Shown here: one piece after another, positions 20,701-54,600 of the stretch
Layout: every line of letters starts with the position of its first letter
Position numbering within the stretch: position 1 is the first letter of the stretch
From: Amoebophrya sp. A120
Taxonomy: Eukaryota > Protista > Dinoflagellata
Direction: 5' to 3'
DNA length: 64,000 nucleotides
Assembly (NCBI GenBank): GCA_905178155.1
Contig: CAJINV010000005.1
Span: 6,435,207 to 6,499,206, forward strand
Program-made: the position numbers and the translations under genes
Notes under the pieces: generated by a model
Databases searched by the model: none
Told to the model about the DNA's origin: nothing
The model's input: only the letters and a program-made list of their open reading frames with translations

Positions 20701-23700
20701 CATCGCCACGTTGGTCAAAGTGTAGATGTTTTTGGTGCTTTTTCTCGTTGCGTCCTCGGCGCCGACACTGTCTCGCGGATTATTGTTCTTCGCAGCTGAA
20801 ATGGACGAAGCGACCGCGAGTTGGTCCTTCAGGTCCAAATCTGCCTCCTGTACGTACTCCATCTCATCCTGGATATGCTCCATATTGAATTTCACCGAAG
20901 ATCTCTTCGACGCGTTACTGCTCGCTGCGTCCGTCAATACTGCATTATTAGCAGCAGCATTATCGTCGTCTTGACCACCTCCTGCAAGAACTGTCCTGTT
21001 TCCGTCGGATTCTAGGTTCATCTTGTTCATGCTGTGTCCCACGCCGGAGGACACTCGTTTTTTGTCCTTATCGTAGATTTTTTCCTCCGCCTCCGCCATC
21101 TTCTTCGAGGAAACATCACTTAATTGCAAATCGTTCTGCAAACTCGAGCTTAGGCCAGACAAAGCGTTTTCCTCTCCGATTTTACTCTCTTTCAAATCCA
21201 ACAACTGCTGCGCCGCCCCGTAGCTGATCCTTACCCCGGAGCTGCTGATCGCCCCTTCAGAGCGGTTGAGGACCTCTTTACTGGATTTACGCGCCTCCGA
21301 GTTTATTTCTTTCACTAATGATTCCCGGATCGTGTTGGACACAGCGGCGATCGTGGCGTTATGCTGGCTTTTTGTGATATCACCGTTGTCATCCGCATTT
21401 TCATCCTCGTCGTCGTCCAGACTCAAGAAATCTGAATGCGCAACCGTCATGTAAACATCCTGCATGAACGTTTTTCGCGCTTGCTTCTCGGTTTCAGTCA
21501 GAGCCGCCGAATAATTGTCGTGCTCCTCTCTTGCGGAGGAACTGCTGATAGCATTCGAAGGTAGTACTAGCGAAGAAGTAGTCCCCACAGCGGGGGCAGA
21601 ACTACTCGGGAAAGAGATTTCTTCCGTGGCTTCCTCCCCTGCAAGATTGATTTTCACGCCCTTGGCACCACCAGCACCTGGTGCTAATGAATCTGGTGCT
21701 TCGACGTCAGCTGCATCTTCTTCTTTCGTGATATCTACCACCTGTTTCGAGAGTCTCTTGTGTTTCTCCTTGTCGATGGCCTCGTCGACGTTGAATATTT
21801 GGAATTGCTTCTGATCGGCGTCGTCGTCCGCATTTTTGTCGTCTTCATCTGGTGCAATGGTTTGCTGGGACAAAGGATATAAACCGTCAGCCGGACCATT
21901 ACCGCTGCTCACCACGTTTGATATTTTCCCCGCTACAACACTCCCCCGCGACGATCTCCTGCCCAGAATCCCCGCAACCGATTCTCCTTCCTGCGCCGCC
22001 ATTGCGGCAGATTTCCGTACCGACTTCAGCTGCTGCTTCCGGTTTCTTTCCGCCACCGTCAGTTCCCCATAGTGGCTGTCTTCCGACTCCGTTTTGTCCT
22101 CCTCTTTCGGAATGGTTTCCGTGACGGATTGCCGCAGCGTTGCGCTCGCAGCATCCTTTGCAGTCGTCGTCGTGTCTTTTTCGGAAGACGCCGACACGAT
22201 CGTGCCAGCCAGTAATGGAGTTGGGTGCAAATCCCGGATTTTTTGCATCTGCTCTAGTTCCTCAGCCGTTGGGATCGACAGTGCGGAATCGGCGATCCCA
22301 AACAGCTCTTTGGACTGAATGTTCGCCAGAGCGCGGTGCAAGTTCATCGGCTGCAGCAAGTTCGCGTTCTGGTTGTGTTGCGCGTGCAGCATCTGTATGG
22401 ATTGCAAATATGTCTGGGTCTGGAAACTTGTAATGCTAAAAGTCAATGGTAGACGCACTGCAATACGCAGCTATGCATGACAAATTTTTTGGCTCCAATG
22501 TCTTACGTATTCCGCATGGCAAACTGCGTTTTTGCATGACAGGCAAGAGGGCCTTTTCGTGCCTATGCAACACAGATGCTCGAGTCATGCCAGACAAGCA
22601 TGACAAACTTGCACTCTTCCAGACCCAGACATTTTTGCATTTGATAATCTGCGTGTGGTCTTTCATCTGGGAGAATTCCAACTTCCGGAGATACTCAATC
22701 TGTTGCACCTGCTCCTTCGTGGGCTGCTCGATTTCGAAGGCAGCATCAGTGGTGGAACTGGGTGGAACAGCAGGAGCTACATTTGTAGTCAACACTTCAG
22801 AAGAGACTGCCGCGGCCGCGGCCGCAGCAGCACCTGGACTGCTGCGCGGTGAAGTCGCTGTAACTCCACCCCCGGCACCTCCCTGCTGCAAAAACCCACT
22901 CGCCGGCAGTTTTCCCTGCTTCGCCTTCAACGCTCCTGTCGCGGCTAGTTGCGCGTTATTCTGCAGGTAGTTTTCTTTCGAGCGAATCGGCTCGGGGTAA
23001 GGCTTCGGCGGGGTTTGCTGGTTTATGGCGAGGGCTTGGGACGATGCGGTTCTTGCACCATCCTGTGGCAAGTTGTTCTCCAGGAGAATCTGCTGGATCT
23101 GCAGCTCATGCTCCGATAGCTGCATCTGTTCTTTCTGCGCCGAGACATTTGTCGTAGTTGTTCCTGCAGCCGCGGCTGCGTTGGCCGCTCGAAGGGACCC
23201 AGGAGCAGGAGCGGAAGTTGTAGATCCCGCTTTAATTGCATTACCGGCTTTGCCGGCGAGAACAAGAGGCTCACTTCCTTCCTCCTCCACTGGTTGCAGC
23301 GGTACGAAGTTCATGTTGACCGTTTGGCTCGCATACTGCTGGCTCTCCTCCCCAAACAAGCGCGAAGGTGCCATTTTCTGCAGCTGCTGTTGCTGTGCTT
23401 GTTGCACGACCCGATTGTTGCTCTTCACATCCATCGTCGCAGGTCCTGCTTGAATCGCCGCGACAGACGGAGATGATCCACCAACCGCCGCCGACGTTGA
23501 CGTCCCGCTAAAATCACTCGTTCCAAGCAACACCGCAAGCAAATCTTCCGCGGTTGCCAACTCATGGTACTTGATCGGCCATTTTCGTTCCAATCTCCGG
23601 ACCACCTCCTGCCGCTCCCGGTATAACAAATCACACACATTGACGCAGTTTTTCTTCAACAAATTCACAAACTGGTCCATCTGGAGCTCAATCGTCGTCA

Positions 23701-26700
23701 CAATCTGCTCCAACTTTTTACACCGTTGCTTTTCCATGCTTAACTCATATTCCCACTGGATCGAGGTTTTGAACGCCGGTAAGTGGTAGCACTGCCCGTC
23801 TTATCAAATGCAAAAATGTCTTGGTCTGGAATGTTGCAGGGTTTGTCATGCATATTTTGCATGACCCAGGATGTCTGTAATGCACGACCTAGCATCACAG
23901 ATTTTTTGAGGGCATCTTGATGCCTATTCCGCATGACAAATGCCCTCCCCATCTAGCACAAGAAACTAGACTCCTCTTGCTGGTCACGCAATACAGATTT
24001 TTTTAGAGTCCAAAGTTAGCATCACAAGTTACAACCTTCCAGACCCAGACATTTTTACAATTGATACGTCTTGCCCGTTCGTCACCATAACGATGTCCTT
24101 TTGCTGGTTCTCCTTTATGTTCTCCTTCCCGTTTTTTAATGATCCATCCTCGTTTTGGAGGTAATTCGCGGGGATAAACGCATTGTGGATCGAGGGGTAA
24201 TCCAGTTTGGCCGGGACAGATAAGCCAAATTTGTTCGCTAGGGTGCCTTGTTGTGTGTTGTTATCCTTCTTGCCGGTGTGGAGCGACTGGATGAAGTCGA
24301 CGAGGGAGATTTTTTCGATCACGTCTAATTCCTGCTGTTGTACGGGTGTTGTGTCAGAAATCGCGTTTGTCATAACACCAGCTGCAACAACAGCAGTGCC
24401 CAGAGTTGTGTTGCTAGAGCTGGTGCCGGTGCCCGTATTGTAATTATTTCCGACTAATTTACTGACACGGTCTTCCGGGTTGTAGAGGAACGTGGACTTC
24501 TCAGAGGTTGTAGATGCAGCTGAAGTCTGCTTGTTCATCTGCCCGTTACTAGCACTGACACCTGTAGAAGAAGGAACAGCATTCTGTTGCTGCGACACCA
24601 CCGCCAGTTGTTCCGCCTCGTTCTTCGTTTTCAGCAGCCACCCGCAGTACTGGTCCAAGTAGTGCAATTTTTCCTTTGCCTCCCCCAATTCCGCCTGGAG
24701 ATTCCGTGTCACTTCCTCCGTGTTTTTCCGGAGCTTTTCCTTCAATTTCTCCTGCTCATTCTGCGCGTTCCTGCGTTTTTTCTCATACAGCAACACCTGG
24801 AACATTGTATGGAAGCGTCAGGATCGCAATCAGCAAAGTTGAAAAACTTGTAATGCATAAAATGCAAGCCACAAAATCCCTGTCTTGCAAAATAGGCAAG
24901 TGAGGCAGGTTGTCGCTGTAGGCCTGTTCTTGAGGGGTAGAAATAGAGCTGGTGAAGTAGCATGACAAAAGGCGTCCTCCTTACCCAAACAGCATGACAA
25001 ACTGGATTGAGGTTCTACCCAAATTTGTCATGCGCCACCTGGAAACTGGGCACCAACTGGTATCTGTTTTATGCATCACAAAGTATCTCAGCTGTGTCGA
25101 TTTCGATCCTGACGCTTCCATACATTGCCCGCCATTTGTAGTATTTTTCCGCGTTCACGGAAAAGGCGCGGAGTTGCAGGTAGTAGTCGTTCACCTCGTT
25201 CAGTTCTTTCAACAAAGTTTCCGTGAACTCCTGCAGCGGCTGCTTCAATTCCGGCAACTCCTGCACGTACGCCAGCATCTTCGCGGACTCCTCGGAAAAG
25301 GTTTGCTTGTTGCTGTGTAGTTGCATATTTTGCTGCTGCTGGAGTAACTGCGCAATGGCGGTGGCGCCGGTGAGATTCGAACTGGCATGAGAAGTAGCGT
25401 TGTTCTCGGGAGTCGTGAGTGCTTTCAGCAAGTGAGGGAACGTGCACGTCTGTTCCTTCAGAAGCGCGATTTCCTGCTCGGTCTGGGCGATGTCGAGAAC
25501 AGTGGTGTCAGCGCCGTTATCCATTGCAAATATCTCTGGGCTCTTTGAAAGTTGTGATGCAAGAAAGGGAAGAGTGAGCGCACTGTGATGCGCTGCCCAG
25601 CATGACAAGTTTTCCCGTGGTTCTGAGTTGCGAACTCCGCATGAGAAATTGCGTTTTTCCATGACACACAAGAGGAGCTGTAGTACGCGGCCACGCAATA
25701 CAAAGTTCAGAGTCGTGCCGGACTAGCATGACAAATCTCGCAATCTCCCAGACCCAGACATATTTGCATTTGATATCCGTCGACCGTGAACAACCCCCCA
25801 CCAGCCTTCTGTTTGCTCCGGTTTAGTTTGCTCTGCTGTTGAAACGATAACAACAAAGGTGCGAACCGAAAATTCACTTTTTGCGGCATCTGCGGCTTCG
25901 CAGGCTCCTCGGCGAGAAGGCCACCAGCCTGGTTACCAGTGGTCGTCATTTTTAAGGCTGCCTGCTCCCGCAGTTCCTTCTCCAACTCTTCCTTTTGCTT
26001 GTCCGTCTTCTGCATGCCCTGCACCGCGAGCGCTAACTTCCCCGCGGTGGAAGCTTTTTTCCGGAAGGTCTGCAGCAAGCTCAGCTTTCGTTGCGCGGCA
26101 CTGGTTGTGCCGGCTCCATTCTGGCCGTTTGCGTCTTCGTTTTGCTGTTGTTCCCCGCTATCGTTTGCGCTGTTCAACATCTCGCCAGCCGCACCTTGTT
26201 CGGCGGAATTATTATTGCCAGAACCATCGGCTCCGGCTGGTGCGCTGTCCGCTTTTGTTTTCTTCCCCCCAGCGGCTGCACCACCTGTCGCACCCGCTTT
26301 CTTTTTCGGCGCCGCTCCGCTTGCACCCGCTTTTTTCTTGTTGCCGGCGGTTTTTTCTAACGACTGCAGCTTCGGGAGTTCCACCCCGGTTAAGTGACTG
26401 TCGTCTTCCATCTTTTTCCGGACTTTACTGTGCAAGTCCTGCTTTTCGGAAGTCACTTGCGCGCCGCCGTTGTTCTCCTTACCCCCCTTCTTCCCACCTT
26501 GTTTGCCACTATTCTCCCCGTGCAGACCTTTCTCTCCGTGCACGACCTGTTGGTGCAACTGCTCTTGCTTTTGTTTCATGTCCAGGTATTCCGCCTGTTT
26601 CAGCTCCTCCGCCGTGATTTCGGTAATTGGCACCTTCTCGCTCATGCCACTCAGTGCCTCCATCATTTTGGACAGCGTTTCATATAGGGTTCGCACCTTC

Positions 26701-27407
26701 GCCTCGGATTCGAAATCCCCGTACTCTTTCGCGAGCAACTTTTCGGTCGCAAAATCCATAAATTCCGACTGAAATTTCCCCAGAACCGACAGACTCGCCC
26801 CGACCTTCTCCCGGAGGAGAGTGTTCTCGTTGCGCAGCTTCTTGATGACGGAGAGATTGTCGGTGTGTTGCCCAAGGGTGGTGGAGCTCAGCTCCAGGCG
26901 CCACTGCTGCTTCTCGGATTCGAGCTCCTTGCGCTCGCCGTCGATAATTTTGATGTCTTCCTGCAGCCGCCGCTGCATCTGGAAGAGCAACAACGACTCC
27001 TGCGACCGCTCCTCGTGCTCCGCGTTAAGAGGACCCCCGGAGGAAGTAGCCCCGGAAGACATCAGGGCCCGCATGTGGTCGCCGGAAATGGTCTGCAGGC
27101 TGCTCGCCGTTCCTGCTGCGAGTCCCCCCGGAAGTGGCCCACCACCCATCATTCTCGACGTGCCCGCCCTTGCGCCGGCACCACCGCTTGTAGCTGTTCC
27201 CCCAAGAAGATCGGACGACCCGGCACCAATGGAACCCGAGGCCCCCGTCGCGGCGGACAGTTTGGGCGCGCGGAGGTAGGACTGCGCCAGCCGCTGCTTC
27301 AGAATCTCCGCATCCTGTGGGGAAAGTTGCTGCAGCAGGTCGGTGCCGGAAGGAACCAGCTGCACCTGAAAGTAGCTGTTTTTGTTTTGCCCCCGCGCGT
27401 CGGCCAT
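17795..27407 (-). CDS. Large (~2,656 aa) coiled-coil protein with C2 domain; 6 introners
   Basis: 9,613 bp minus 1,642 bp (elements + DRs) = 7,971 bp = 2,657 codons; C2 motif NTFVKVIFG...THVIPNTANPDWK...VVFEVWE...LIGSC. Confidence 0.85.
20122..20382. mobile_element. Introner family A
   Basis: TIRs; DR GGCGC/AGCGC. Confidence 0.9.
20429..20690. mobile_element. Introner family A
   Basis: TIRs; DR CAGCC/CAGCC. Confidence 0.92.
22396..22646. mobile_element. Introner family A
   Basis: TIRs; DR ATCTG/ATCTG. Confidence 0.92.
23802..24066. mobile_element. Introner family A
   Basis: TIRs; DR CGTCT/CGTCT. Confidence 0.92.
24808..25122. mobile_element. Introner family I (TIR TATGGAAGCGTCAGGATCG)
   Basis: Perfect 19-bp TIR; DR CATTG/CATTG. 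Confidence 0.92.
25518..25775. mobile_element. Introner family A
   Basis: TIRs; DR GCCGT/TCCGT. Confidence 0.88.
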
Positions 27408-28235
27408 CTTTTTTTATTTCTGTTTGCAATTGTAAAACTGTACAAGAAGCAGCAAAGTATGACTTAGTAAAAAATCTCAACCGCTAGCTGTACCAGCCGC
27501 CAGGAGAGAGATTCCTAGCGCCTCCGCCCCCAACAGGAGCTTCCGGGCGACGGCGTACTTAGTTAGACTAGTATACTGGCGCCAACACAAAACTTTAAAA
27601 AATTGAAAAGAGACTAGTGTGGAAATTTCTCTTGGGGTTCTATGTCTATCAAGATCATCCGCCTGGTGAAATTGTGCGTTTTTGTTGAAGAAGTGTGCGC
27701 TAGAAAAGAAACGAAAGGCAGCAGGACGAGAAGCACGATTGTGTTCTTGATTTTTGCACGAAAGTGAGAACAACATGTGAACGACGAGGGAAAGAGAAGA
27801 ACTCAGACGAGAACGAAATACGCACGAGAACCACGAACGAAAGCGTCTAGTTCTTCCTGTATGTGCACGGAGTTACACGTTGTACGAATGAGGTGCGAAA
27901 ACTTGTAGACCGAAATTTTCTTTTGCTGCAGAAGCTTCTTCTAGACATTCAAGCAATGTTGACGGCACCAACCGATGCATTAAAGATGAACTTCTCGGGG
28001 ACAACATGACTGAAAAAGAACCAGGCACAGTATACCACCCAATCATCGATTGCTGTGAAAATTTTCTCCGAAACTTCTGACGAAATCAAAACTTCCCCTT
28101 TGTAGGCTCCTCCTGGCCCATAACTACAAGGTGAGGAATTGCTGCTTTAATACATCAGCCAGTGCAATATACAGAGCTCAAAAAACCACATAAACCAGTG
28201 GTCATTTACTTACAAAGAGTAAGTGCTTATGATCT

Positions 28236-31200: not shown

Positions 31201-33210
31201 TCCAGACTAAGCATGACAAGTTGCAGCATCCCCCCAGACCCAGACGTATTTGCAGTGCATAGCTCGTTCCCCTTCGCAATCCGGTCGTTGGCATCTTTCA
31301 CACAGTCGGCCAGCTTTTCCTCGTAGGCAAAAATCACGCGTTTCAGCCTGCTGATGTCGGAAGCGGCACTATTTTGTTCCCCCCTCTGCTTGTCAGCATC
31401 CGGTTGGTGAAAGCAGATCCGGTATCCTGTGTGAAAGCGTCACCCCCCAGAGTTATTGTGCAGATTTGCGATTACAGAAACGCATGCAATGCGCATCTCC
31501 ATGAGAGGCATTTTCAGTCGTGTTTTGGAATCTGTAATGCTCTAAACAGACTGCGCAAATGGCTTTCTCATGCGGCTTCCCTTGCTAAACAGCACTACAC
31601 AGCAGATGTTGGAAACTTGTCATGCACAACTCCCAAACCTTGGAGATTTGTGCTGCAGATTCACCAACTTGACTCTGGGGCGGACTCCTTTTTACTCAGG
31701 ATATCCGGGGCGAAGAGAACACCGTGTGCGACGCTGCTCCAACACCCTCTTGGTCGTGCGGCACAAGACCAACATTTGCAACCTCGCGCTCGTCGGCCAG
31801 TGTAGTCTTCGGAGTGACGGGAGCACTGGCCAACCTAGAAAGGGGGGCCCGAGGCTGATTACTCCTCCTAGTCGAGAAACTACACGAAGAAACAGAACTC
31901 CGCTCTCCTGCGCCAGCAGAAGAAAGAACCGTCCCGATCCTATTGAGGCTCGCGAGCGGCAGTTTGGGTACGACCGGTTCAGCAGGCCAGGTGCGGTTAC
32001 TGTAGTTCCTTCCACCCGGAGGTGCAGTTCCCCTTCGCTCGTCCGTCGCTGCTGCGGATGAGGGACAACATGCGGTCTTGCTAGAGGTAGGGATGGGAAG
32101 AAGCAGCCGCCGCGGGGAGCAGCCACGCGGATCTCCAATTTGTTGTGGTCTACTCCTTCGAGAAAAAGAAGAAGTCGCAGCGCCCACTGCACCAGCCGCC
32201 CGACGAGGCACACCTTGCAGGGCGTGGATCCGAGAAGTGCTGGTGGTTGTCGCGTTAACAGTACCTCTCTTTTCCGCGGGCGGCGTGGATCCGGTGCAGG
32301 AGAGGCGTTCTTCCTGACTGTTCCTCAAGAACAGGTGCTTCTCTAAGTTGAGGCGGAGATCGCTCAGCGTGTTGCTCTTCCGCCGCCGGCGCTCTGCTTT
32401 TCTTCTCGTCCTTGTTGCTTTTCGTTTATTTCCATTCTTGTCTGCATCTGCAACACAGAGGATGGACTTCTTCAAGTAGGAATTTTTACTGGTAGTAGTT
32501 ATCATCTTCTTCCGATATCCGAAGTTCTTCCGTAATGGGGAGGGGGCTGCAATATCCTGCGAAGACGTCGCCCATGGTCTTTGCCCTTCCGCAGTTTCCG
32601 CTCGGTCCACGGAAAAGTCCTCGTCCTGCTCGAAGGGGGCGCCGTCGTCGCTGCTTCTAGAAGGATCTTCGTGGACGCCGCAACAACTGTAACCGCTGGG
32701 CACTTCCGCAATCACTGGAATAGGCTCCAGTTCCTTGATGGCCGACAGAAATAAATCTGTCGTGTCGTCCGCCTGGTCGTTGTGGTCTATGTTGTAGTTG
32801 CCCGCACCATGATCTTGATGTTCATCTTCTTGTACAACTACATCTGGCGCAAAAAAGGATGGCGCGGAGGGTCCTCGTGGTACTTCTACACCGGTTCTGC
32901 AAATGCGCGTGTCCTCGCGTTCATCTCGTGCACCACTGGTGCTTTCGTTCCGCCCCGGAGCAGTGCCCACAGCTTGCGTTTGATCGTTTGCTGTCCTCGG
33001 CTGTGCTGCTCCCCCGGCCGCAACCACCACGGCCGCCGCTGCTGCTTCGGCCGCTCGACAGAGGTGGGTCCGGTTTAGGTTTTTGTTTGCGCGTGGGCCG
33101 GAAAGTAGAAGATCCTGGCCAGCGGATTCTTGTGCGGCTGGGGGATGTTCCCAAGAGCAAACTGGAGGATGTTCCCAAGAACAAACATCCTCTGCTTCAT
33201 CCGTGGCCAC
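28236..33210 (-). CDS. Hypothetical coiled-coil/low-complexity protein (~1,330 aa); 4 introners
   Basis: 4,975 - 982 = 3,993 bp = 1,331 codons; last junction checked in frame. Confidence 0.75.
28702..28953. mobile_element. Introner family A
   Basis: TIRs; DR GCGTT/GCGTT. Confidence 0.92.
29618..29791. mobile_element. Introner family F (TIR ~TATCCCAGAGAAAAAAGCTGGCAGGG)
   Basis: TIRs; DR AAACT/GAACT; similar to 46217-46387. Confidence 0.9.
31007..31261. mobile_element. Introner family A
   Basis: TIRs; DR GCTCG/GCTCG. Confidence 0.92.
31423..31703. mobile_element. Introner family E
   Basis: TIRs; DR TCCGG/TCCGG. Confidence 0.9.
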
Positions 33211-33503
33211 GTCTCGGAGGATGCGTTACGTATCCAGGCAGAAAGACTGCGTCAGTGTGCTGTTGAAAGTGAATGCACTTGCACATGCAGCACATGTTGC
33301 ACGACAAAACAGTAATAAAAATGGAAATACCAGATTAAAGTACGTTTGTCATCCTGCCTTCAGGGAGGAACCTTTACGGCCTCCTCGCATGTTGAAAGAG
33401 TGACTTCGAATTGCACCAACTAGCGGCACAGGAGAACTTTTTTCTCTTATCCAGGGTACACTTGTGTTGATACTGTGCGTCCACCCAGGAGGTGGACGAG
33501 CAA

Positions 33504-41600: not shown

Positions 41601-43438
41601 TTCGACGCCGTCGGATGCGTAGCACGCATGACAAACTCTGTCTGTGCATGACAAAACAGTAACGCCTTTGCTGGCTATGCAACGCAGAAGATTTTTCAGG
41701 AATTATGCTAGAAGAGATTGCAACAAAAATAAATCCTGTTTGTTTTCCTGAACCCAGACATATTTGCACTGGATATTCGTCTGAAGATATCGCAAGGAAA
41801 AATCCCCCCTCCCCATATTGACGAGGTAGCTTTTCGAAAATTTGCGTTGCTGATTTGTGACCACAAATCGCGTCTGTCGTGCAAGATGGCAAGTCCACCG
41901 GCTCCGCCGCATTATGCAGGCGGTTTGTCATGCTGCTGGGCCTACAGCACGGACGTTTGTCATGCTAAGCGTCTAGGTCAAAGCCTCTCTACTCAGGCTT
42001 GATATGGGTGTGCAGTCCTCTCCAGCAAGAAAACTCTGACCTGTGTACTCAAATCCAGCATCAGAAACTTCGTTTTGATATGGGGAGGGGGGATTTTTCC
42101 TTTTGATAGAAGACAGCGAATCCTCGACATCCCGGGCTTCTTCGTCCGCCCCCCGCTCCCAAGATTATCCAGTCCAAAAACGTCCCCAACACAGACTCAA
42201 ACTGGGAACTTGGCAACACAAGGCCAAAATTTTGGGAGTCACGCATGACAAGTTTCGCTCTGTATTGTATACAATGCAGTTTAGCAAGGACGGCCGCATC
42301 ACAAAACCATTTTCCTATGCTATTTACAGCATTACAAATTCCGAAACTACACGCCTGGAAATGCCTGCCATGGGGTCGGGGCGCATTACAAATGTTCCTG
42401 CTGTAATTACAAATCTGCACGACAACTCTGGACTCGGGACGTTCTTGCTCAGGATAAAGATTCCTCGTTCTTCTGCTGCTGCCTCTCTTCCCGGAAAAAC
42501 TCATCTACGTCGTTATGGCTTGCTCAGATGCTCGATACAATCTTCTCCTCAATCGTTTCAGTTGAGACCCGATTTTGTCTTGCATAAACAGCATAACTAG
42601 CATACAAGGCCTTGCACTTTTTGCAATACAGATTTCGCCAGATAATTTCAGTGTGGTTTGAACTCCGCAACTTGTCATGCGCAATCCTGTGAGAGTTCTT
42701 CGAGTTGGCTAGGTAAAACAAAATCCACTTTTTGCATCACAGATTTATTTCCATTTCTACTGCAAGAACGGTTGAAAAATTGTATTACGTCTGAGCTGCA
42801 GGTCATAGTCTTTCTTCTTGAAGTATCCTGTGCAAAAGTATCGCACTCGTAATAATTGCAATCATGCAAATTTTTTGCTGAAGCTAAATCCGCATTACAA
42901 ATTTATTTCTCAAAGAAATTTGTAATGCATTTATACGAGTACGATACTTTTGCAATGCATATGAACCCCCGGGCTGCTTCGATCCTCTGGGCGGCGGTAG
43001 TCTGGTAGATGCTCGGTTGCGTGCTCCGCTATCAACTGCAAATGTGTCTGGGTCAGGGAACTTGTGATGCTGCTTGGCGAATCATGAGGAAGCCACAAAT
43101 GACGGCTCAGCTTGACAAGTTTCTGAGTTGCTAGGTGTTCTTGTCTATCCAGCATGACAAACTGCGTTTTTGCATGACATAAAGCTGTCGCTTTAGCTTT
43201 TGGGTAACGTGCATGACAGACTTAAGAGTCATGCTAGCCAAGCAAGACAGACTTGCATTCTTCCAGACCCAGACATTTTTGTAGTGCATATCCGCTGCGT
43301 CTGGTTTATAATTCCGCGGCCTGGCTGCCCGCCCTGTACCTGCGGTTCCACCAACAGTCCGCGCGAGCGAGCGGGCATGCTCGTTGGTTCTTGGCCAAGT
43401 AGTCGCTCTGTAGTTGCTTGCGCATCTATTTCCCCCAT
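38670..43438 (-). CDS. Hypothetical 281-aa single-pass membrane protein with Cys-rich and Thr/Ser-rich segments; 13 exons, 12 introners
   Basis: All 12 junctions translate in frame; TM LIFGCLGFLVLLFGIMGCSGF then TCDCANPNAGRTGRTSCLCNCEPGDDGTSTCDC. Confidence 0.8.
38777..39003. mobile_element. Introner family K (TIR TATSCAAGAAAAAAACTGTGT)
   Basis: TIRs; DR GTTTG/GTTTG. Confidence 0.9.
39135..39400. mobile_element. Introner family A
   Basis: TIRs; DR GTAGG/GTAGG. Confidence 0.9.
39450..39712. mobile_element. Introner family A
   Basis: TIRs; DR CGTGG/CATGG. Confidence 0.9.
39765..40786. mobile_element. Introner family A carrying a nested element
   Basis: DR TCGCA/TCGCA; 266 bp remain after removing the insert and its TSD. 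Confidence 0.9.
39972..40723. mobile_element. Nested non-autonomous TIR element (TG...CA, 4-bp TSD CATG)
   Basis: TIR TGAATCGGTTCGA / TTGAACTGATACA; CATG on both sides. Confidence 0.85.
40856..41073. mobile_element. Introner family G (TIR ~TAT...AGAAAAAAGTG.TACAGTTACACA)
   Basis: TIRs; DR TAAAA/TAAAA; similar to 51567-51780. Confidence 0.9.
41153..41439. mobile_element. Introner family A
   Basis: TIRs; DR AGGTA/AGGGA. Confidence 0.88.
41501..41775. mobile_element. Introner family A
   Basis: TIRs; DR TTCGC/TTCGT. Confidence 0.88.
41788..42108. mobile_element. Introner family D (TIR ~TATC..AAGGAAAAATCCCCCCTCCCCATAT)
   Basis: TIRs; DR GAAGA/GAAGA. Confidence 0.92.
42166..42456. mobile_element. 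Introner family E, inverted relative to 9320 and 31423 copies
   Basis: TIRs; DR AAGAT/AAGAT. Confidence 0.9.
42514..42807. mobile_element. Introner family L (TIR ~TATGACCTGC..CTCAG)
   Basis: TIRs; DR GTCGT/GTCTT. Confidence 0.85.
42824..42961. mobile_element. Introner family B
   Basis: TIRs; DR TGAAG/TGAAC. Confidence 0.88.
43030..43290. mobile_element. Introner family A
   Basis: TIRs; DR TCCGC/TCCGC; similar to 828-1083. Confidence 0.92.
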
Positions 43439-44693: not shown

Positions 44694-45021
44694 TATCAAA
44701 GTGAAAAAAGCCCCCACCCCATATTCAAAAGACAATTTGCGTTGCTGGATTTGCGTTGCTGGATTTGTGTACACAAATGAGCTCTGTATTGCAGCAAGAG
44801 CATGTCGGCATATTTCCTCAGCCCATTTGGGTACGCATCCGGCTAGCAGCTGAGCATGAGAAACAAGTCTGCCATATGCGAAAACGCATGACAGACTCGC
44901 TGTACAATGCGCCACATGGGTGCCGTTTGCCTTGTACGCAAGACAAAGCTGATTTGCGGTCACAAATCAGCATTACAAATTCTCGTTTCGATATGGGGAA
45001 GGGAGACTTTTCCTCTCAGTA
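44694..45021. mobile_element. Introner family D with degenerate DR, apparently downstream of a stop codon
   Basis: Family D TIRs and interior; flanks CGCTA/CTGCT. Confidence 0.8.
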
Positions 45022-45063
45022 CTGCTGCTCACCACACGAAATGCTCTCGTCGTGCGTCCCTGA

Positions 45064-45438
45064 TTACGAATTTGAGCCCTTATCGCCCGGAGGATTCGCC
45101 TCAGCCGCGCTCTTCGCTGCCGACGTCCCCTCACTCGTCGTGGAGTTTTTGTGTTTTGTGCCGCCGCTCGGACTAGCACTTCTTCCAGCGCCGTTCGTGG
45201 TGGTTTGCGAAAGAACTCTGTTGCTCGAAAGAAAACTTCTACCGAAGGAGTTTGTGGCGGAGCTTCCGGCTTGCCCAGCTTGCAGCTGATATGCCTGGTC
45301 TAGTACTTCTGCGTCTGCCGCCGTCCCTTTAGTACTAGGTGGCAGAGCGTCTTCCAGGCTGCTTCTGCTCGCGCTCAGGTTCGAGTCGCCCTCGTTGTGA
45401 AAGCTGCCGATCTCAGCCAATCTTATGCGAGAAAACAA
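45064..45438 (-). CDS. Short Ser/Thr/Ala-rich ORF without ATG; possible gene fragment or terminal exon
   Basis: 124-aa ORF whose composition resembles neighbouring proteins. Confidence 0.35.
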   Translation of the reverse strand: MFSRIRLAEIGSFHNEGDSNLSASRSSLEDALPPSTKGTAADAEVLDQAYQLQAGQAGSSATNSFGRSFLSSNRVLSQTTTNGAGRSASPSGGTKHKNSTTSEGTSAAKSAAEANPPGDKGSNS

Positions 45439-45647
45439 GGAGATAAACTGCGTTTACTGCGTGTATTGTTTGGTCTTCTTTTGGACGAGGATTTCTATTC
45501 TAGGATTCTTGTTAGTGCGAAAAACTACGTAGACACGTCCATAGTCAGTCGTCTGATGTGACACATGGAGTATTTTTTACAGTTAGCTGTGCAAATCTTT
45601 ATTCGCATCACACATTTCATGTTCGACGTCCATTCAAGAACTACATA

Positions 45648-48600
45648 TTACACAGTTTCCATTTTTCTCGCTTGGATAAACGTTCCCGAAAAATCGTTGA
45701 CGGAATGAAATACGTGGTCCCGGCTCTTCAGCTGTCGTGGCCGCGTATGCAATGCAAAAGCATCGTACTCGTAGTCATTCCGATTATGCATTGCAAATCT
45801 TTTTCCGAAGGTCAATCAGCATTACAAACTCCATTTCTCATGCTAGCTGAGGGCGAAATCATTTGTAATGCAATTCACACTACTAGTACGATGCTTTTGC
45901 AATGCATACCCCGCGGATTGCGACAATTGCGATTTCCACTGTGCGGGCCCACTATTCGGTCCTCCCCCACTGGCGCTGTTCTCCCCTTGGCCGGTTTTCC
46001 GCAGGTCCTGTGGGTCGGACGTGGCGAGGGCGTGGAACAGCCCCGTGGCGGTCCCAGCGCTGGTCTCCGATTTCCTTCGTTGGGGCGTGGAGAGATTAAA
46101 CTTCTCGGCGTCAAGTTGTGCTCCGGTCAGCATCTGTCCATTATCTTTCGCCCCGCCGTAGTTCTTCCGTCCGCGACCACCGTCTAGGGAAAGCGTCTTG
46201 GCGAGCGAGGACAGGGTATCCCAGAGAAAAAAGCTAGCAGGGCATGTTTGTAATGCAAAAACACATACACAGAAAAATTTGTCATGCGCGGCCCCATAGC
46301 ATGCTGTTCAGGATATGCAGCACAGATCTTCCTGTGTATTCATTTTTGCATTTCAAATATGACCTGCCTGCTTTTTTCTGTGTGATACAGGGATCCCTGC
46401 AAGTCGCTGTGCTCCGCGCCACGTCCTCCCGTGCCCGACGTCGAACTGTGGTCTCCCGCTCCTCCCACGCTCGTCCCACTTCCCCCCTGGTGTAGGTTTT
46501 GTGCCGGCGGCGCGCCGCCGTCCTGGGCGCTCGCGAGCGAGCTGCTGGCGGTCTCCTCCCGCAATTTCAGCATTTTCGCGCCCGCAGAACTGGTGGGCGC
46601 CAGCAAGGCTTCGTCCTCTTCTTCCAGACTGGAGGATTGGCCCGTGACAGAGTTTATGCACTGCAAAAGTACTATCGCACTTGTTGTACTAATTACATTT
46701 ATGCATTACAAATCTTTTTCTTAAGGTAAATCTGCATTACAAATTTAATTTGTGATGCTGGGCTGATTTGTGATGCAATTTATACTAGTACGATGCTTTT
46801 GCATTGCATAGAGTTCTTCCGCAGCGCGTTTTGCCGCACGTGCGTATCGCGCAGGTTCGGGCCCCCGTTCTGTTGCTGCTCTACCATCTCTTTCTGGATC
46901 GCCTCCTTCTGCTCTACCTCCGCCTGAATACGCGTTATCAAAATGAAAAATCCCCACTCCCCATGTCAATAAAACGGAAATCTGTGATGCGGGATTTGCG
47001 TACACAAATCAGATCTGTCTTGCAGTAGAGCACTGCACGCAGATGCTAAGCCTGAGCAGGGGTCTTCTGGTGTAGGCACTTGGCACGGCAGACGTCTGCC
47101 CCGTAGGCCTTACAGTATTACAAATCGCCTCTATAACGCGGCGGACTCTCCGGATTTGCATTCTTGCAAGACAGACAGGATCTGTGGCCACAAATCTGCA
47201 TCACAAATTTTCAGAAGGCTGCGTTCTTAATATGGGGAGGGAAGATCTTCCGCTTGAATACGCGTTTCCAGATATTTGTTCTCTAGCACCGTGGTCCGAA
47301 ATGTTTTTTGCACTTTGCTGATCTCGCTCATCTGGTTCTCCACGAGCGACTGGAAGTTTTGCTTCATCGATTCCAAATTTTCACACGCGAGCAGCAATTC
47401 CTTGCGTTGCTTTTCCGCCTCGTCCTCTAACAGAACGGTTGACTCCGTTTGAATGCCGATCGATTGGAACTCCTTCTTGAACACCGCAGCGGCCTCTTGC
47501 TCTTCCCGCTTCTTCCTCTCCTCGGGCGTTTCCTTGTCCTTGTTCAAAAACTTCTCCCGGTTGTAGTTCGTGATGTAGCGAATTCGTGGTAGATAGCGGT
47601 TGATGATCCGTAAATCCTCGAGAAACAAATTCACCCGCTTGATGTGACTGTTCAACCGCTTGACCTCCTTTTCCCGCACGGAGAAAGGACTGAAGCCGCC
47701 GGCTTTACTTTGCCCGCCCCGACTGTTATGCAACAAGCCAGCAGGATCGGCACCCGCGGAAAATCTTCGGTGGTCGGTACCTTGCTTGTCGTTCAGTCGA
47801 AGCTGATGCCTCTGCGCGAGCGACGGCTGCTCGTACTCCAAGCGGCCGGTGCTCGCTAAACTTGGATCGTCGTAGAAGTCGTCGAGCAGTGGGTGGCTAC
47901 CTTTCAGCGACGACACAGCCCCTCCCAACGCTGCGCTGCCCGCGGCTCCGGAGGAGGAACTACTCCCGGTGGTGGAGGAACTCCCGCCGATCCCGGCCCC
48001 GGAAGGAGAGTTGTTGGTGTTGGTCCCCATGTTGCTTTTCGACACGGTGGATAGCACCAGTTTCTCTACCGCCTGCCACTGTGGCACGGAAATTTTCTCG
48101 AACTCGTTTACCACGTTCCAGGTGACGAGATACAGTGCGTGCGGGGAGATGCTCCGGCACTTCACGCACGCGTGTAACGCCGCCTCGATGTAGTCCTCAA
48201 AAAAACACAACTTGAACTGGAAGGACTGATTCTGTTTGCTGTCCGAAATCTGCAGCGAGGAAGAGTTATGCAGCAGCGACGCCGCATTCCCACTCGCGAC
48301 CGCACCAGCACTGAAGCTAGTCGTCGGATATAACCCTTTGTGGTGATGCCCCGCCCCTCCTCCCGCCCCGAAAGCGTGATGCAGGTGCAGCTGCTTTTGG
48401 TGGTAAGCCGTCGAAAGGGCGTTGTACCCCTGGGCGGCACTTTGGACGTAGCCATACGTGCGGTCCAGGTTTTGTACCACGTGAATGTACACGCACTCTA
48501 TCACCTCGGGACACTCGTCGAGCTGAGAGATTTTGTTGTTTCAGACTTGTTTAATCAAACCTGTGATGCATAGAATGTACCACAGAAGTGTTTGTCTTGC

Positions 48601-51600
48601 CGTTTATGTTCCCTATAGGAAATGCACGCATGGCAAGTTTCGCCTATTTCTTTTGACATGTGTAACGCGATCGCGAACTTGTGATGCAGAACCTACTATA
48701 CAGATCTCTATCTTCGTTTCAGAGCCCATGCGCATAGGAATCAAAGTTGTTCTCATCGCTGCACCCCAGCCGCTGCAAAAAATCGCAGCAACTGGCGTGA
48801 GGACAAACTTGTGATGCATAGAATGAATCACAGAAGTGTTTGTCTTGCTAGTACACATGCTAGACACTGGATATCTTCTAGTAGTTGCGAACTTGTGATG
48901 CAAAACGTACTATACAAATCTCTATTGTTTCAGAGCCCATGCGCGTAGGAATCAAAGTTGTTCTCATCGCTACACCCCAGCCGCCGCAAGAAATCGCAGC
49001 AACTGGCGTCAGGACTCAAACCTTTTACTAAATCTTCGGGTCATCATGCGATAATCTTGTTTACACTGTTGTCTGCTCTAGTGTGTCAACTTCTCAAGAG
49101 GATCTTCTTCATGTATCAGCATGTGTACAGTACATGCTTGTTTTTCCTGATCGACATGAATTTTCGGGCGGAACTACCGCGGGCTGGATCTCTATTCTTT
49201 CAAAACGGCATCATATTAAAGTAAGATCTCACTCGAATACCTTCATCGACAAAAAGATGAAAATACAACGCCTGCTCTAAAGACCAAAACTCCTATACCA
49301 TTTTCGTGGCCGTGTAGTAGTCCGCTTGGCCATTGTCGCCGATAAAGATGTATGCATTGCCAAGATGTCTGGGTCGGGAAACTTGTGTTGCTGATACTTG
49401 CATTGCAAACTTGCTGCTTGTACGGCATAGCAGCACGACAAATTATCCTCGGCTTATTTTTGCGGTTCAAGTTTATTCGTGTTTAGCATGACAAGCTGAC
49501 TTCCAGCACGACAAAAAAAATTGTCAATCGTATTCATGCATCACAGACCTTGTTGTCCTTGAGGTCTTGCAATACAAATCCAGACCCAGACATATTTGCA
49601 ATGCATAAGATGAATTTGAATTCCGGGTAGAGCGATTGGTATTCGACAAAGTTCGCAAACTTTTTGTCCCCCAGTGGCCCGTAATCCCCGCTCATGATGA
49701 ACTGCGTCGCTGTCACGATCCCGCCGGGCAGCAGCGCCGGCATGCAGTGCAACCCGTTTTCCATCCGCATCATTTTGGAAAACGAGGAAAACAGCCCCGA
49801 CTCCACGTAGTCCGAGACAATGTGCGGCCGAGCGGAAAAGCCCACCAAATGGCCGAAATTCCCGCCGCAGTCCAGGTTTTCGGTCTGCTTTATCGTGAGG
49901 AAGAATCCCCCCTCCCCATATCAAAGTGGCAATCTGTGTTGCGGGATTTGTGTACACAAATCAGCTTTGTCTTGCAGTATAGAAGTGCAGGCAGATAAAA
50001 AGCCTGGAAGGGGCTGGCTAGAGGTGGGCGCTCAGCATGGCAGACGTCTGCCCTGTTGGTGCAGCAGCATTACAAATCGCCTGCGTAAAGCGGCGAAAGC
50101 TCTGGCTTTGCTCTCTTGCAAGACAGACCTGATTAGTGACCACAAATCAGCATCACAAATTTTCAAAAGGATGCCTTTTCAATATGGGGAGGGGGATTTT
50201 TCCTTTCAATATGCTTCCGTAATTGCTCCGTCGTGCTGTCGTTCTCGTTTTGGTCGCTTTCTGATTCCTCTTCCGAGGAACTCAAGCCGCTGAGCTCCGA
50301 ATCTGACAGCTCGCTGTCGTGGTCGTTTTCCGACGAAAACAGTTCGTCATCCGCCATCGCGTGCTTATCCGATACGGGGCTGCTAGGGGGGGAAATCGGG
50401 ATGTTATCGTCGACAAGAACGGCAGCTGGTGTGCCACTGTCCGGAAGATGAGGACCTAGAAGATGGCCTTCTTGTTGCTCCAAAACTGCTGTTGCGACCG
50501 ACGCAGCACTACTGGCGCTACTGTCTGTTTCCTTCTGCGATAATGAAGATCCTGGCTCTACTGCTTGCGCATTTATTCCGCCCTGTGGCGTTTCCCCTGG
50601 TCGTGTGGTTTTCATCGACACAGGACCGTCTTGCACACCGCTCTCGCCTGCGGAAGACTCTGCGGAGGTCAGGAAGGCAGTGGACTCTGGTGGAAGACTC
50701 TGCTCTCCACCCGCTGACGAGGTCGTGGGTGCCGCCGAAAACATCTCGGTCGGCGGAATGGATTTCAGCTCGTCGTTGTTATCAGACGTAGACTCTTTCG
50801 CGGACAAAAGCGGCTCGTTCTCCGAGGAAAGGTCGACTGCCCCTTGATGTGCGGCCACCCCGGTAGTGGGGTCTTGGTCTGCCAAGGTAGAAGTCGCGCC
50901 TGCTAACAGAGCGGTTGACTTCGTGGGCGAAGATGCGCCGCTCAATATTCCTGCTTCTCGTGTGTTCCCTGCGACTGCTACCGGCTGGTTCAGTTCCTGC
51001 TGGCCGCCTGGTGTTGCAGGTCCGGCAGCTCCCGAAGAAAACGTACTTTCTTGATGTCCATTCTGTGTAGATTGGTTTCCTACGATACTCGGCTCGCCAG
51101 CACCAGAACCGGTCAGATATATATTTGCCGCGGTCAGTGGCTCGCCCACTGCGGCAGTTACTTTCTCAAAACTAGACACTGCCGACGTTGTTGTGAGATT
51201 CAAGTGTGAGCCATCGGACGAAACGCCGGTGTTGATACTGCTACTGGACTATGGATTGCAAATATGTCTGGGTCTGGAAGACGAAGATTCTGAGACTTGT
51301 CATGCACGTTTTGCATGAGCCATGAGGTCTCTGACAATGCGAGACCTAGCATGACAGATTCTTTGAGGTCACTATCATGCCTTTCCTGCATGAGAAACTC
51401 CCTCTGAATTTGGTCAAAAGTGGACAGCCTTTGGTTCTCACGCAACACAAATTTTTACACCATTCAGATTTAGCATGACAAGTCTTGATCTTCCAGACCC
51501 AGACATTTTTACATTTGATATGGACGCGGATGAGACCACGCCGGTGGTGTTGGCAGCCGTCGAGGGTATCATGAGAAAAAAGTGTTACAGTTACACATTT

Positions 51601-54600
51601 GTTGGAGTTTCTGCATCACAAATTTTCTCTGTATAGCAGAGAAAACTTGTAATGCGAAGATCATAAGGGAAAACAGGAAGGAAACGAGGCCCCCAAGCAT
51701 TTCCTGCATGAGAGAGGTTGTCTGTGTTGCCGGTCTTGCATAGACTATGTGTGTAACTGTAACACTTTTTTCTTGCGATAGAGGGGGCGTTGTCCTTACT
51801 GCTATCCTGCTGCTGGCTGCTGCTCTTCTTCAAGTCTGTGATCTGGGTACTATTAACCGCAGTGCCCCCAGCACTCGGCGCTTTATTTCCTTGTTGTAGC
51901 TGTTTGCTCTGAGCACCGGGCAGCTTCGTAACGCCGCCCTTACCCGCCAGTGGCGACCCGCTGCTATTGGAAGAAAAAAACGAGCTGGTAAACTGGGGGT
52001 AATTTTCCCGCCACTTCGAGGTCAGCATGGGTGTGCAGCGGTTGGCCAGGGCCGAGGGACACCGCATCCACCATTTGTCCACCCGGTACTGCTCCACTTC
52101 GGGCGCATCGTAGTGCTCCAGAACGCGGTAAAACGTGGTAACCCCGGGGTAAATCTGTTTCCGCGGGTACCTCTTGTCCACGCCCGCGATGTGGTTGCCG
52201 CCGGAACAGTAGAGCGTATCGTCGATATCGGTCAAGATCTTCAGCCACTGGTGTCTGGCAGAGAGCCCCTGAAAGGTCGGGGACATGTTCAGAAACCCGG
52301 CCAGGTCCAGGTCGGCGCCCAGGTAGTGCTGCGCATCCTCGCCGATGGAAGAGAGAGAGGGGGGTTGGGAAATGAGGGTGCTGTTGTTCGCGGCAGTTGT
52401 TGGCGGTGCTCCAGGTAGTTGTAAACCTCCCGGGTGGCCTTGCATACCACCAGTAGACGAATTGTTCATCATCGGTGGGTTTAACCCGCCTGCGAGCTTT
52501 CTTTTCAGAACACTATCGGTGGAAGAAGATGGTGGTCCCACATTTGTTCCTGTTGCGCTGATAGTGTTGTTCCCGATAGAGGTAGTGGTCCCAATTGTGC
52601 CACTCCCGATTTGGTCGTGCGGCTCCGAGGTGCTACCCGACGTAATGTCGTTGTGTTTCGAGGTTCCGGACGCGTTGTGAATTGTCGACGTTGTGCTCGC
52701 ATCGCTATCCGGTTCCCGATCGTGCAAAAAGGAAGTTGGCCCGCCGGGGGCACCGCCAAGCTGCACCTGCTGGTGGTAGCCAAACTTCATCTTGTTCATG
52801 CCCAGAGTTGTTGTGCTGTTTGGATGTTGGTGGTGGAAGGGGGAACGAAGCTTGTGATTCCCCACAGAGCCAATATAACTTGCTCAGGTGTTACAATCTC
52901 AAGCGTTGCAATAGAATATGGAAATCTGTGATGCAGGAAGTGCATGATCACCGTAGTCCCAGCATCGGTTTGCGCATGACAAGTTGCGGCACCCAGAACC
53001 CCATAAATATCCGGCGAAATTTGTATTGCGAAAGGCGCAACTCTACACACGTTCCTCATGCTCTTCATGTAAGACAAAATCCAGACTCTATTGTAACGTT
53101 TGAGATTGTAACGGTTCAGCAGGTCATAGCCAAAAGCCGGACCATTTTGCTGGTCTGAGGACAGAATCCCGTCCTCCGATGGCGTTCGGGATCTCGTCGG
53201 GGTCTGCATCCGGAAATTAGAGGCACCTCCAGCAGTAGAAGACACTATACCCCCCCGGTTCAGCATGGATTGCGGATTCGTCATTAGCGTGGATTTATCA
53301 AATGCAAAAATGTCTGTGTCTGGAAGAATGCAAGTTTGTCATGCTTGTCTGGCATGACTCGAGAATCTGTTATGTTGCAGAGGCACGAAAAGGCCCTCTT
53401 ACCTGTCACGCAAAGACGCAGTTTGCCATGCGGAATACGTAAGACATGCCAGCCAAAAAATTTGTTATGCATAGCTGCGTAATATTGCAGTACGTCTATC
53501 ATTCACTTTTAGCATTACAAGTTTCCAGACCCAGACATATTTGCATTTGATACGATTGGAATTGCGGTGAAAATTCCTGCAAAGCGTGGTTTGAACTCTC
53601 CTTTTTGTTCAGTAAATACCTCAAATGGAGATCCCGGCCGATCAAGCGGGTGTAAACCTGCAACGTGGCTTATGACAGTGCACAACTCCTCCCTCCCCCT
53701 CATTTGTCATGCAAAAACCCAAATCCAGTTGCTACCTTGTGGCACCGCGTGCATGACAAATTCCGGAAATCCAAACAGTGCTACAGTTGGCGCATGAACT
53801 TGTCGTGCACAGGGTCCACCTGCACTGGTGTTTGTAATGCTGTTGATACCATGCAAATGAGAGGGAGGGGGAGTTGTGCACTGTCATATCGCCTGCTGAA
53901 GTATGTGCTTCTGGACTTGATTCCGTTTCCCGTAGCTCAAGTCGGAAAAAACCAGTTTCCAAAACCCGTGTACCGAGCCTTTGGAATCGGTCATGGATTT
54001 CAAATTCGTCAAGTCGTCTCCCAGTGTGTTCAACACAATCCGGGTGACCGCCTCCTCGGCTTCGGGCGAGCAGGAAAATTTCAAAACCTGCAGTGCGTTG
54101 ATGATGAGAACTCTCGATCTGACCGTCAGTTCGTCGACCGCGTCGAAGCAGAGAAATTTTATCAGCTGCGTCCTGGACCCACCGGTGTTGCTGCCCCTAG
54201 AAGTAGATCCACTCATGGCCGTCTGGTGTTTCTGCCCGAAACTCCCGCTGACCACACTGCTATGTCCAGGATGATGATGAACCCCGACGATGCTTGGCAC
54301 GACGGAATACCGCTTGTTGTTGTTTTCCTTCGCAGTATAGAACCAGGAGAAAATGTTGAAAAAGCTAGGAACAGAGAAGTTCATGCTGGTATCGTCGTGC
54401 AACCGGTCCAACAGAATTATCAAATGCAAATATGTCTGGGTCTGGGAGAGTGTAAACTTGGCATGCAGATTTTTCATGGCCCATGAGGTCTGAAGTGCGG
54501 GACTTAGCATGACAGACTCTGCGAGGTCTCTGCCATGCCTATCCTGCATGAGAAACTCCTCCCCAACTTGGTCGAAAGTGGACAGCTTTTGGCACTCATG

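What the first reader, a model, noticed from the sequence alone, without database searches (positions are those of the whole stretch)
22396..53552. The same intron sequence works in either orientation
Seen: 22396-22646 and 53296-53552 are reverse-complement near-copies, yet both host genes are on the minus strand. The same holds for family H (34378 vs 34842, inside one gene) and family E (31423 vs 42166). Both orientations restore the frame. Known: spliceosomal introns need strand-specific donor, branch and acceptor signals. Inference: recognition is symmetric, by TIR hairpin in RNA or by binding double-stranded DNA.
Basis: partly seen in the sequence, partly recalled or inferred. Interest (0 to 1): 0.85.

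Follow-up and report, generated by a model that had tools for sequence, protein, structure and literature searches.

The report
Transposon introns spliced in either orientation
In a parasitic dinoflagellate (Amoebophrya), small transposon copies sit inside genes facing either way about equally often and cutting them out restores the protein frame both ways, likely because the signals for removal lie in their mirror-image ends; these introns were already described, but their tips hint at a testable, direction-aware splicing code.

Summary
Observation confirmed. 22396-22646 and 53296-53552 are reverse-complement copies (90% core identity), both in minus-strand genes. Removing element plus one 5-nt target duplication restores each frame. 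The H copy at 34842 really runs to 36207, with a nested 1045-nt insert. These are the published Amoebophrya A120 introner elements: TAT...ATA inverted ends, 5-bp duplication. The spliced 22396 gene equals the annotated A120 protein over all 2656 residues. In 697 kb of related contigs plus the window, 16 of 16 families with four or more called copies occur both ways, near 50:50. Only 11 of 270 could be GT-AG. Either-orientation introners are known (Polarella, Aureococcus), but those use splice dinucleotides. The tips vary with host strand (5' TA and 3' A(-3) held; post-hoc p about 1e-4), and arms show no G-U wobble excess. Best model: a polar, U1-less spliceosome reading signals within the ends. 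No RNA reads were seen.

The parts
22396..22646 (.). Introner element, family F1 (251 nt, TAT...ATA inverted ends), majority orientation in this window; host gene on minus strand
   Evidence: junction present in annotated protein P0152 at residue 1303
22391..22395 (-). Downstream copy of the 5-bp target-site duplication of 22396 (upstream copy 22647-22651; 5 of 5 identical)
53296..53552 (.). Introner element, family F1 (257 nt), opposite orientation to 22396; host gene on minus strand
   Evidence: retention gives in-frame stops, removal with 5 nt gives a 1253-codon frame
53291..53295 (-). Downstream copy of the 5-bp target-site duplication of 53296 (upstream copy 53553-53557; 4 of 5 identical, difference synonymous)
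17795..27413 (-). Host gene of 22396: C2-domain protein, 2656 aa, six introner introns (20122, 20429, 22396, 23802, 24808, 25518), none readable as GT-AG
49293..55148 (-). Part of the host gene of 53296 (1253-codon frame across eight elements); ortholog of A25 protein P0001, which carries PF09949; homology continues to about 47269 and 55764
34378..34694 (.). Family H (F15) element, 317 nt, 5 of 5 duplication
34842..36207 (.). Family H element in opposite orientation, 1366 nt including a nested insert; 5 of 5 duplication
35074..36118 (.). Nested 1045-nt insert with TG...CA inverted ends and a 4-bp duplication, inside the H copy
31423..31703 (.). Family E (F4) element, 281 nt, in a 1335-codon minus-strand frame
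42166..42456 (.). Family E element in opposite orientation, 291 nt, in a 285-codon minus-strand frame crossing 12 elements
34066..34328 (.).
54418..54678 (.). Family F3 element whose removal with 5 nt gives a gap-free match to the A25 ortholog
48523..49298 (-). Ordinary GT-AG intron (begins GTAT) placed by the A25 ortholog, for comparison
   Evidence: boundaries inferred from homology

Best explanation
These are Amoebophrya A120 introner elements, small non-coding repeats with TAT...ATA inverted ends and 5-bp target duplications that lie in coding sequence facing either way about equally often, and they are likely removed from the RNA together with one duplication's worth of bases by a direction-aware spliceosome that would read only signals inside the inverted ends. 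Shown: anatomy, orientation tally, frame restoration by element+5, lack of GT-AG and of a target consensus. Inferred: they spread as non-autonomous DNA transposons blind to the host strand. Because the two ends are mirror images, a transcript meets TAT-N7-AAA first and TTT-N7-ATA last whichever way the element faces, so no symmetric recognition is needed. Inferred and untested: the 5' cut falls one base before TAT, so that the held U and A act as +2U/+3A of a GUA-like donor with a free +1; the held A three bases from the 3' end is the branch adenosine; the 3' cut is set by distance rather than by AG; end-to-end pairing may bring the sites together in place of the missing U1 but is not shown to be under selection.
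For: 5-bp duplication 0.91 mean identity vs 0.24-0.30 for other lengths, 373 of 518 perfect. Removal of +5 gives a coding call for 260 of 475 elements in related contigs vs 23 (+4) and 16 (+6); window 26 of 48 vs 1 and 1. Both orientations in 16 of 16 families with 4 or more calls; F1 28:16; no departure from 50:50 across 17 families (chi2 16.8, p 0.47). Spliced 22396 gene identical to annotated P0152, whose pipeline took intron boundaries from transcript alignments (PMC7789003 section 25). Family F3 sits in one orientation in the RPB1 gene with exact continuity to yeast residues 830/831/832 and in the other in KIN17 within one residue. Tip polarity: in 399 elements re-detected without scoring the first three bases, position 1 changed 2 times at host-5' vs 12 at host-3' (p 0.012), position 3 changed 15 vs 3 (p 0.007). 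Published RNA-supported motifs are polar too: all nine leading A25 motifs start TT with varied 3' ends, all nine leading A120 motifs have T at +2 (PMC7789003 Table S4). U2, U4, U6 snRNAs and 83 of 89 spliceosomal proteins are reported present, U1 snRNA not found.
Against: No RNA reads, lariats or splicing efficiencies were seen. The annotated protein of the 53296 gene was not retrieved, and no F1 junction fell in a Pfam domain seen on both sides. The polarity rests on about 39 variant ends, the grouping of positions 1-2 vs 3 was chosen after seeing the data, position 2 alone is not significant (4 vs 7), and position 1 (p 0.004) would not survive correction for 26 positions. The sequence before the held A matches a branch consensus poorly. 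A fixed register predicts one free copy at each duplication position, yet 42 of 73 differences between copies are synonymous, more than that allows (p 0.012-0.049). Published motif tables may reflect aligner choice within the repeat. No G is enriched at the proposed +1 (obs/exp 1.06).
Confidence: 0.5

Rival explanations
1. The paired inverted ends form an RNA stem that is cut and ligated by a non-spliceosomal nuclease and ligase, as proposed for euglenid nonconventional introns; the first reader's hairpin reading.
For: Both focal introns fold with z -4.4 and -6.9; 126 of 130 elements pair end-to-end on either strand; no GT/AG, branch motif or target consensus; U1 snRNA not found; euglenid introns with inverted ends leave as circles, not lariats (PMC11282704 section 6). 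An asymmetric enzyme could also give tip polarity.
Against: No G-U over A-C excess in the arms; the commonest tolerated changes at positions 2 and 3 (3' ACA, 5' TAC) break pairing while the wobble-keeping changes there are rare; any inverted-repeat transposon folds, spliced or not.
Confidence: 0.27
2. A DNA-binding factor (for instance a domesticated transposase) binds the inverted ends or the repeated internal motif in double-stranded DNA and hands the ends to the splicing machinery during transcription.
For: A 9-nt motif occurs in 267 of 270 elements on both strands, 14.4 per kb inside vs 1.14 per kb outside; element interiors show almost no host-strand-biased words (one 5-mer at corrected p 0.034).
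Against: DNA binding alone has no host-strand direction, yet the tips do; such motifs are expected in any transposon end; no such factor was looked for or found here.
Confidence: 0.1
3. The cut site is not fixed: the machinery recognises the ends but slides within the 5-nt duplication from transcript to transcript, sometimes leaving an extra codon, so both copies are under coding constraint. This can combine with either the best model or the hairpin model.
For: 42 of 73 copy differences synonymous vs at most 44-47% if one copy were free; codon-phase skew 68:139:53 favouring sites where the middle three duplicated bases are a whole codon, not predicted by target sequence (33:35:33); the published figure legend calls splice sites variable relative to the hairpin.
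Against: The window alone shows no phase skew (9:9:8); leaving an extra codon cannot be the main product in RPB1 and would create stops at 2 of 270 sites.
Confidence: 0.3
4. The elements are cut out of DNA (as ciliate internal eliminated sequences are), or one orientation is poorly excised and its hosts are damaged genes.
For: No reads were examined; the window alone shows a 12:1 orientation skew in one large group and one ranking of close pairs gave 36 same vs 14 opposite.
Against: The skew vanishes in the larger sample (867:869 cross-contig pairs; 45:35 and 68:62 disjoint pairs); both orientations sit in housekeeping domains; the published introns are RNA-versus-genome differences; tip polarity follows transcription direction.
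Confidence: 0.06

Closest known systems
Amoebophrya A120 introner elements (Farhat et al. 2021, PMC7789003)
   Same: TAT start with an A-run seven bases on, about 240-260 nt, 5-bp direct repeats, non-canonical junctions, unidirectional genes; the 22396 host gene is identical to an annotated A120 protein. These are those elements.
   Different: In the passages, sections 10 and 25 and supplement hits that I read, orientation of elements to the host strand is not tabulated ('orientation' occurs only for genes in the places shown; 'strand' 0 times in the main text) and no tip polarity is described.
Polarella glacialis ILE classes 1, 2, 3, 6, 7, 8, 10 and Aureococcus anophagefferens introners (Roy et al., bioRxiv 10.1101/2020.10.14.339549, citing Huff et al. 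2016)
   Same: [quoted passage not shown]
   Different: They carry or recruit GT/GC/GA and AG from the element or a constrained duplication, and classes 6, 8 and 10 are reported with a bias to one orientation; here no dinucleotide or target consensus is needed and no bias is detected.
Euglenid nonconventional introns
   Same: Inverted ends, duplication-like repeats at junctions, no GT-AG, probable MITE origin.
   Different: Reported to leave as circles by an unknown route; here the excised form is unknown and the end motif differs.
Fritillaria borealis non-canonical introns
   Same: MITE-derived, non-GT-AG, removed by an adapted U2 spliceosome.
   Different: Dominant AG-AC/AG-AT ends and U1 retained; here junction dinucleotides are close to random and U1 snRNA was not found.

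Membership tests
Amoebophrya A120 introner elements | Inverted ends starting TAT, seven variable bases, then an A-run | tested here: met
   TAT at 262 of 270 host-5' ends; A at positions 11-13 in 85-92%
Amoebophrya A120 introner elements | 3-5 nt direct repeat at the boundaries | tested here: met
   5-bp repeat, 0.91 identity vs 0.24-0.30 for other lengths
Amoebophrya A120 introner elements | Repeated families within coding sequence of this organism | tested here: met
   52 elements in the window, spliced frame identical to annotated A120 protein P0152
Amoebophrya A120 introner elements | Junction supported by RNA reads | not testable with these tools
Non-autonomous TIR DNA transposon (MITE) | Short, non-coding, inverted ends, fixed-length duplication with free sequence | tested here: met
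   149-323 nt (5th-95th percentile), 5-bp duplication, near-background target composition
Non-autonomous TIR DNA transposon (MITE) | A cognate autonomous element with the same ends | tested here: inconclusive
   11 elements over 480 nt, longest stop-free frames 59-280 codons, not searched against protein families
Polarella/Aureococcus-type either-orientation introner | Forms introns in both orientations | tested here: met
   16 of 16 families, by frame restoration
Polarella/Aureococcus-type either-orientation introner | GT/GC/GA donor and AG acceptor carried or recruited from the duplication | tested here: not met
   GT-AG possible in 11 and GC-AG in 5 of 270
U2 spliceosomal intron | GT-AG ends | tested here: not met
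   none of six registers is GT-AG for 22396 or 53296
U2 spliceosomal intron | Strand-specific branch motif near the 3' end | tested here: inconclusive
   No sense excess of four branch-like motifs, but one A inside the end repeat is held on the host-3' side
U2 spliceosomal intron | Lariat intermediate, U2/U6 dependence | not testable with these tools
   needs experiment
Euglenid-type nonconventional intron | Selected RNA stem joining the ends | tested here: inconclusive
   Stem predicted but no wobble signature
Euglenid-type nonconventional intron | Excised as full-length circle | not testable with these tools
   needs experiment

The most novel reading that the evidence does not exclude
Amoebophrya has re-tuned a U1-less spliceosome so that a transposon's own mirror-image end supplies both a G-free donor (N-U-A) and, read at the other end, the branch A, with the acceptor set by counting. 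Any insertion of the element into any coding site, facing either way, is then born a perfect intron: a sequence-independent, orientation-proof intron cassette.
Probability: 0.35. Interest if true: 0.85.

Novelty: new variant of a known kind. Interest (0 to 1): 0.55.

Why it matters
How Amoebophrya removes tens of thousands of non-GT-AG introns without a detected U1 snRNA is an open question (PMC7789003). Orientation independence confines the needed signals to the inverted ends. The host-strand pattern at the tips names specific bases to test: a 5' cut one base before TAT and a branch at the A three bases from the 3' end. If right, it explains why these elements can invade even RPB1 without target-site limits, and it would be a splicing code with no exon-side requirement. 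The elements themselves and the idea of either-orientation introners are already in print, which caps the surprise.

Tried and rejected
RNA evidence: no reads were obtained. Orientation bias: 12:1 in one window group and 36:14 among close pairs ranked by local identity did not hold with global identity and unrelated flanks (45:35, 68:62) or by family; a mild same-orientation excess among the closest pairs is not excluded, and F8 is 2:11. Avoidance of opposite copies within a gene: 52 same vs 50 opposite within loci, rejected. Removal of element+2 as the main product: rejected at RPB1, TCP1 and the RRM junction. Duplication lengths other than 5: rejected. Extension of the stem into the duplication: at chance. 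G-U wobble as the cause of tip polarity: fits position 1 only. De novo search for ordinary introns to get the host's donor and branch consensus: too noisy to use. Rfam: 0 matches in the window. The A120 protein of the 53296 gene: not found (length limits apply). An edge error in my first frame caller was corrected (24 of 523 calls changed); searches use the first set of 270 calls. Huff et al. 2016 is not held.
Full report
Check of the observation. The two named stretches are reverse-complement near-copies: 239 of 277 columns are identical when one is flipped. With the terminal 30 nt trimmed so that the inverted ends cannot carry the match, identity is 0.90 flipped and 0.56 unflipped, far outside 300 shuffled controls. 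The same test gives 0.85 vs 0.59 for the H pair and 0.71 vs 0.57 for the E pair. One correction: the H copy at 34842 does not end at 35075; it runs to 36207 and holds a 1045-nt insert with TG...CA ends and a 4-bp duplication. The window has further opposite pairs, for instance 23802 vs 34066 and 33816 vs 55309.

Anatomy. I catalogued 52 elements in the window (48 by a structural scan and hand curation; 4 more by eye), 23% of its length. Each has TAT...ATA inverted ends and a 5-bp direct repeat. Removing element plus 5 nt gave a longer two-sided frame than +4 or +6 in 38 of 52 cases, with 3 ties and 11 worse. 22396 lies in a 2658-codon minus-strand frame over six elements and 53296 in a 1253-codon frame over eight; 2 of 729 and 36 of 6561 alternative combinations do as well. 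The E hosts score 1 of 81 and 66 of 5000; the H host is weak at 300 of 2187.

Identity. A search with one exon of the 22396 gene returned P0152, 2656 aa, named Amoebophrya sp. A120 by its sources. It equals my spliced frame at every residue, including the 22396 junction at residue 1303. None of its six element junctions can be read as GT-AG. The published pipeline took intron boundaries from transcript alignments because ab initio tools failed (PMC7789003 section 25), so this is indirect RNA support for one orientation of family F1. The 53296 gene matches the A25 protein P0001 on the minus strand. Junctions 54418, 53671 and 49351 give gap-free continuity, and the short exon after 53296 shows weak similarity in the frame that removal of 53296 yields. 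The A120 protein of this gene was not retrieved. The end motif, length and 5-bp repeat match the introner elements of Farhat et al. 2021 (passages; section 10; supplement hits and part 3 of 5).

Larger sample. No genome is held. After dropping 5 overlapping loci, 697 kb plus the window gave 523 distinct elements; the duplication is 5 bp (0.91 identity vs 0.24-0.30 for lengths 2-4 and 6-10; 373 of 518 perfect). A codon model trained on the loci called a host strand and frame for 260 of 475 locus elements with +5 removal against 23 and 16 for +4 and +6, and for 26 of 48 window elements, all minus (first version: 244, 22, 17; neighbours agreed in 195 of 196). 215 locus elements stayed uncalled. 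All 16 families with four or more calls occur in both orientations; the focal family F1 is 28:16. Across 17 families there is no departure from 50:50 (chi2 16.8, p 0.47). Retention would break the frame or hit a stop in 266 of 270.

Independent coding evidence. Of 141 junctions with flanks of 22 residues or more, exon pieces were scanned against Pfam (142 pieces from the first 75 junctions; 89 of 122 pieces from the other 66). Seven junctions had the same non-repeat model on both sides within two positions; four were exact. Family F3 sits one way in RPB1, with the upstream exon ending at yeast residue 830 and the downstream one resuming at 832, and the other way in KIN17, within one residue of the human protein. 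Family F6 sits one way in an SNF2 domain and the other way in RPB1. No F1 junction was among them.

What is read? No conventional signals: GT-AG is possible in 11 of 270 in any of six registers; target composition is near the coding background; four branch-like motifs are as common antisense as sense. Both focal introns fold strongly (z -4.4 and -6.9) and 126 of 130 sampled elements pair end-to-end on either strand, as any inverted-repeat element would. If the RNA stem were selected, G-U should exceed A-C on the transcribed strand; it does not (194 vs 210; 207 vs 203 for departures from family consensus). The outer three bases, however, depend on the host strand and not on the element's orientation. 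Among 422 elements the host-5' end varied as TAC 8, TAG 2, TGT 1 and the host-3' end as ATG 6, ACA 5, ATT 2, ATC 1, GTA 1. Re-detection that ignored the first three bases gave, in 399 elements, 2 vs 12 changes at position 1, 4 vs 7 at position 2 and 15 vs 3 at position 3; the two-by-two test gives p 9e-5, a grouping I chose after seeing the data. Positions 4-26 show no such difference. A strand-biased mutation process would push positions 1 and 3 the same way; they go opposite ways (inference).

Mechanism. Shown: anatomy, both orientations, exact restoration. Inferred: strand-blind DNA transposition. The tip pattern favours a polar reader. My best reading is a U1-less spliceosome that cuts one base before TAT, using U and A as the +2 and +3 of a GUA-like donor (consensus recalled; the one homology-placed ordinary intron here begins GTAT), branches at the A three bases from the 3' end, and sets the acceptor by distance. 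Published RNA-supported motifs agree in having T at +2 in all eighteen leading classes (Table S4), though aligner choice may shape that table. Against a fixed cut: differences between the two duplication copies are 42 of 73 synonymous, above the 44-47% ceiling for one free copy (p 0.012-0.049), and insertion phase is skewed 68:139:53 in the loci but 9:9:8 in the window. Both hint at a sliding cut. I give the polar spliceosome 0.5, a stem-cutting nuclease 0.27, DNA-bound marking 0.1 and DNA excision or failed splicing 0.06; sliding can ride on the first two.

Comparison and novelty. The elements are published. Either-orientation intron creation is published for Polarella classes and, by citation, for Aureococcus (bioRxiv 10.1101/2020.10.14.339549, passages; Huff et al. 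2016 not held), and one introner survey allowed for opposite-orientation copies (PMC9860276, passages). Those elements use splice dinucleotides. I found no statement on orientation or tip polarity of Amoebophrya elements in eight searches or in the passages read of PMC7789003, PMC12130899, PMC11282704 (passages and section 6), PMC12787238 and 10.1101/2025.08.15.670264; subscription papers are mostly outside the library. Earlier notes of this scan: none on this DNA; one on another genome with GT-AT introns did not bear on it. Verdict: real, a new variant in behaviour of a known kind, interest 0.55.

Noticed in passing
window 35074-36118: 1045-nt element with TG...CA inverted ends and a 4-bp duplication nested inside an introner; a different transposon type.
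   Followed up: partly
window 39765-40786: Introner of the F3 type expanded to 1022 nt by an internal insert of about 750 nt whose ends I did not define; the host frame is still restored.
   Followed up: partly
loci L001-L143 (called elements): Codon-phase skew 68:139:53 at insertion sites with no target consensus to explain it; absent in the window (9:9:8).
   Followed up: partly
270 called elements, window and loci: Differences between the two duplication copies are mostly synonymous (42 of 73), as if both copies were under coding constraint.
   Followed up: partly
all element families: A shared 9-nt internal motif, on both strands, 14.4 per kb inside elements vs 1.14 outside, in families with unrelated interiors; a candidate transposase or splicing-factor site.
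   Followed up: partly
L067:7880-14034: RPB1 gene carrying several introners, one in the region matching yeast residues 830-832.
   Followed up: partly
window 38670-43450: A 285-codon frame assembled across 12 elements with exons as short as about 12 nt; cysteine-rich segment after a hydrophobic stretch.
   Followed up: no
window 6457-6604: Element whose duplication copies match at only 3 of 5; an alternative boundary shifted by one base was also found.
   Followed up: no
window 44598-45118, 48556-49015, 57944-58817: Locally duplicated stretches and degenerate elements left out of the catalogue; the 48556-49015 duplication lies within an ordinary GT-AG intron.
   Followed up: no
window 828-60513: Within this window related copies mostly face the same way (12:1, 4:1, 4:0, 3:0), unlike the pooled loci; local clustering or chance.
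   Followed up: partly
window 3649-5586: Uninterrupted minus-strand frame with a G-patch domain and a weak GPKOW C-terminal match, a likely splicing factor gene.
   Followed up: no
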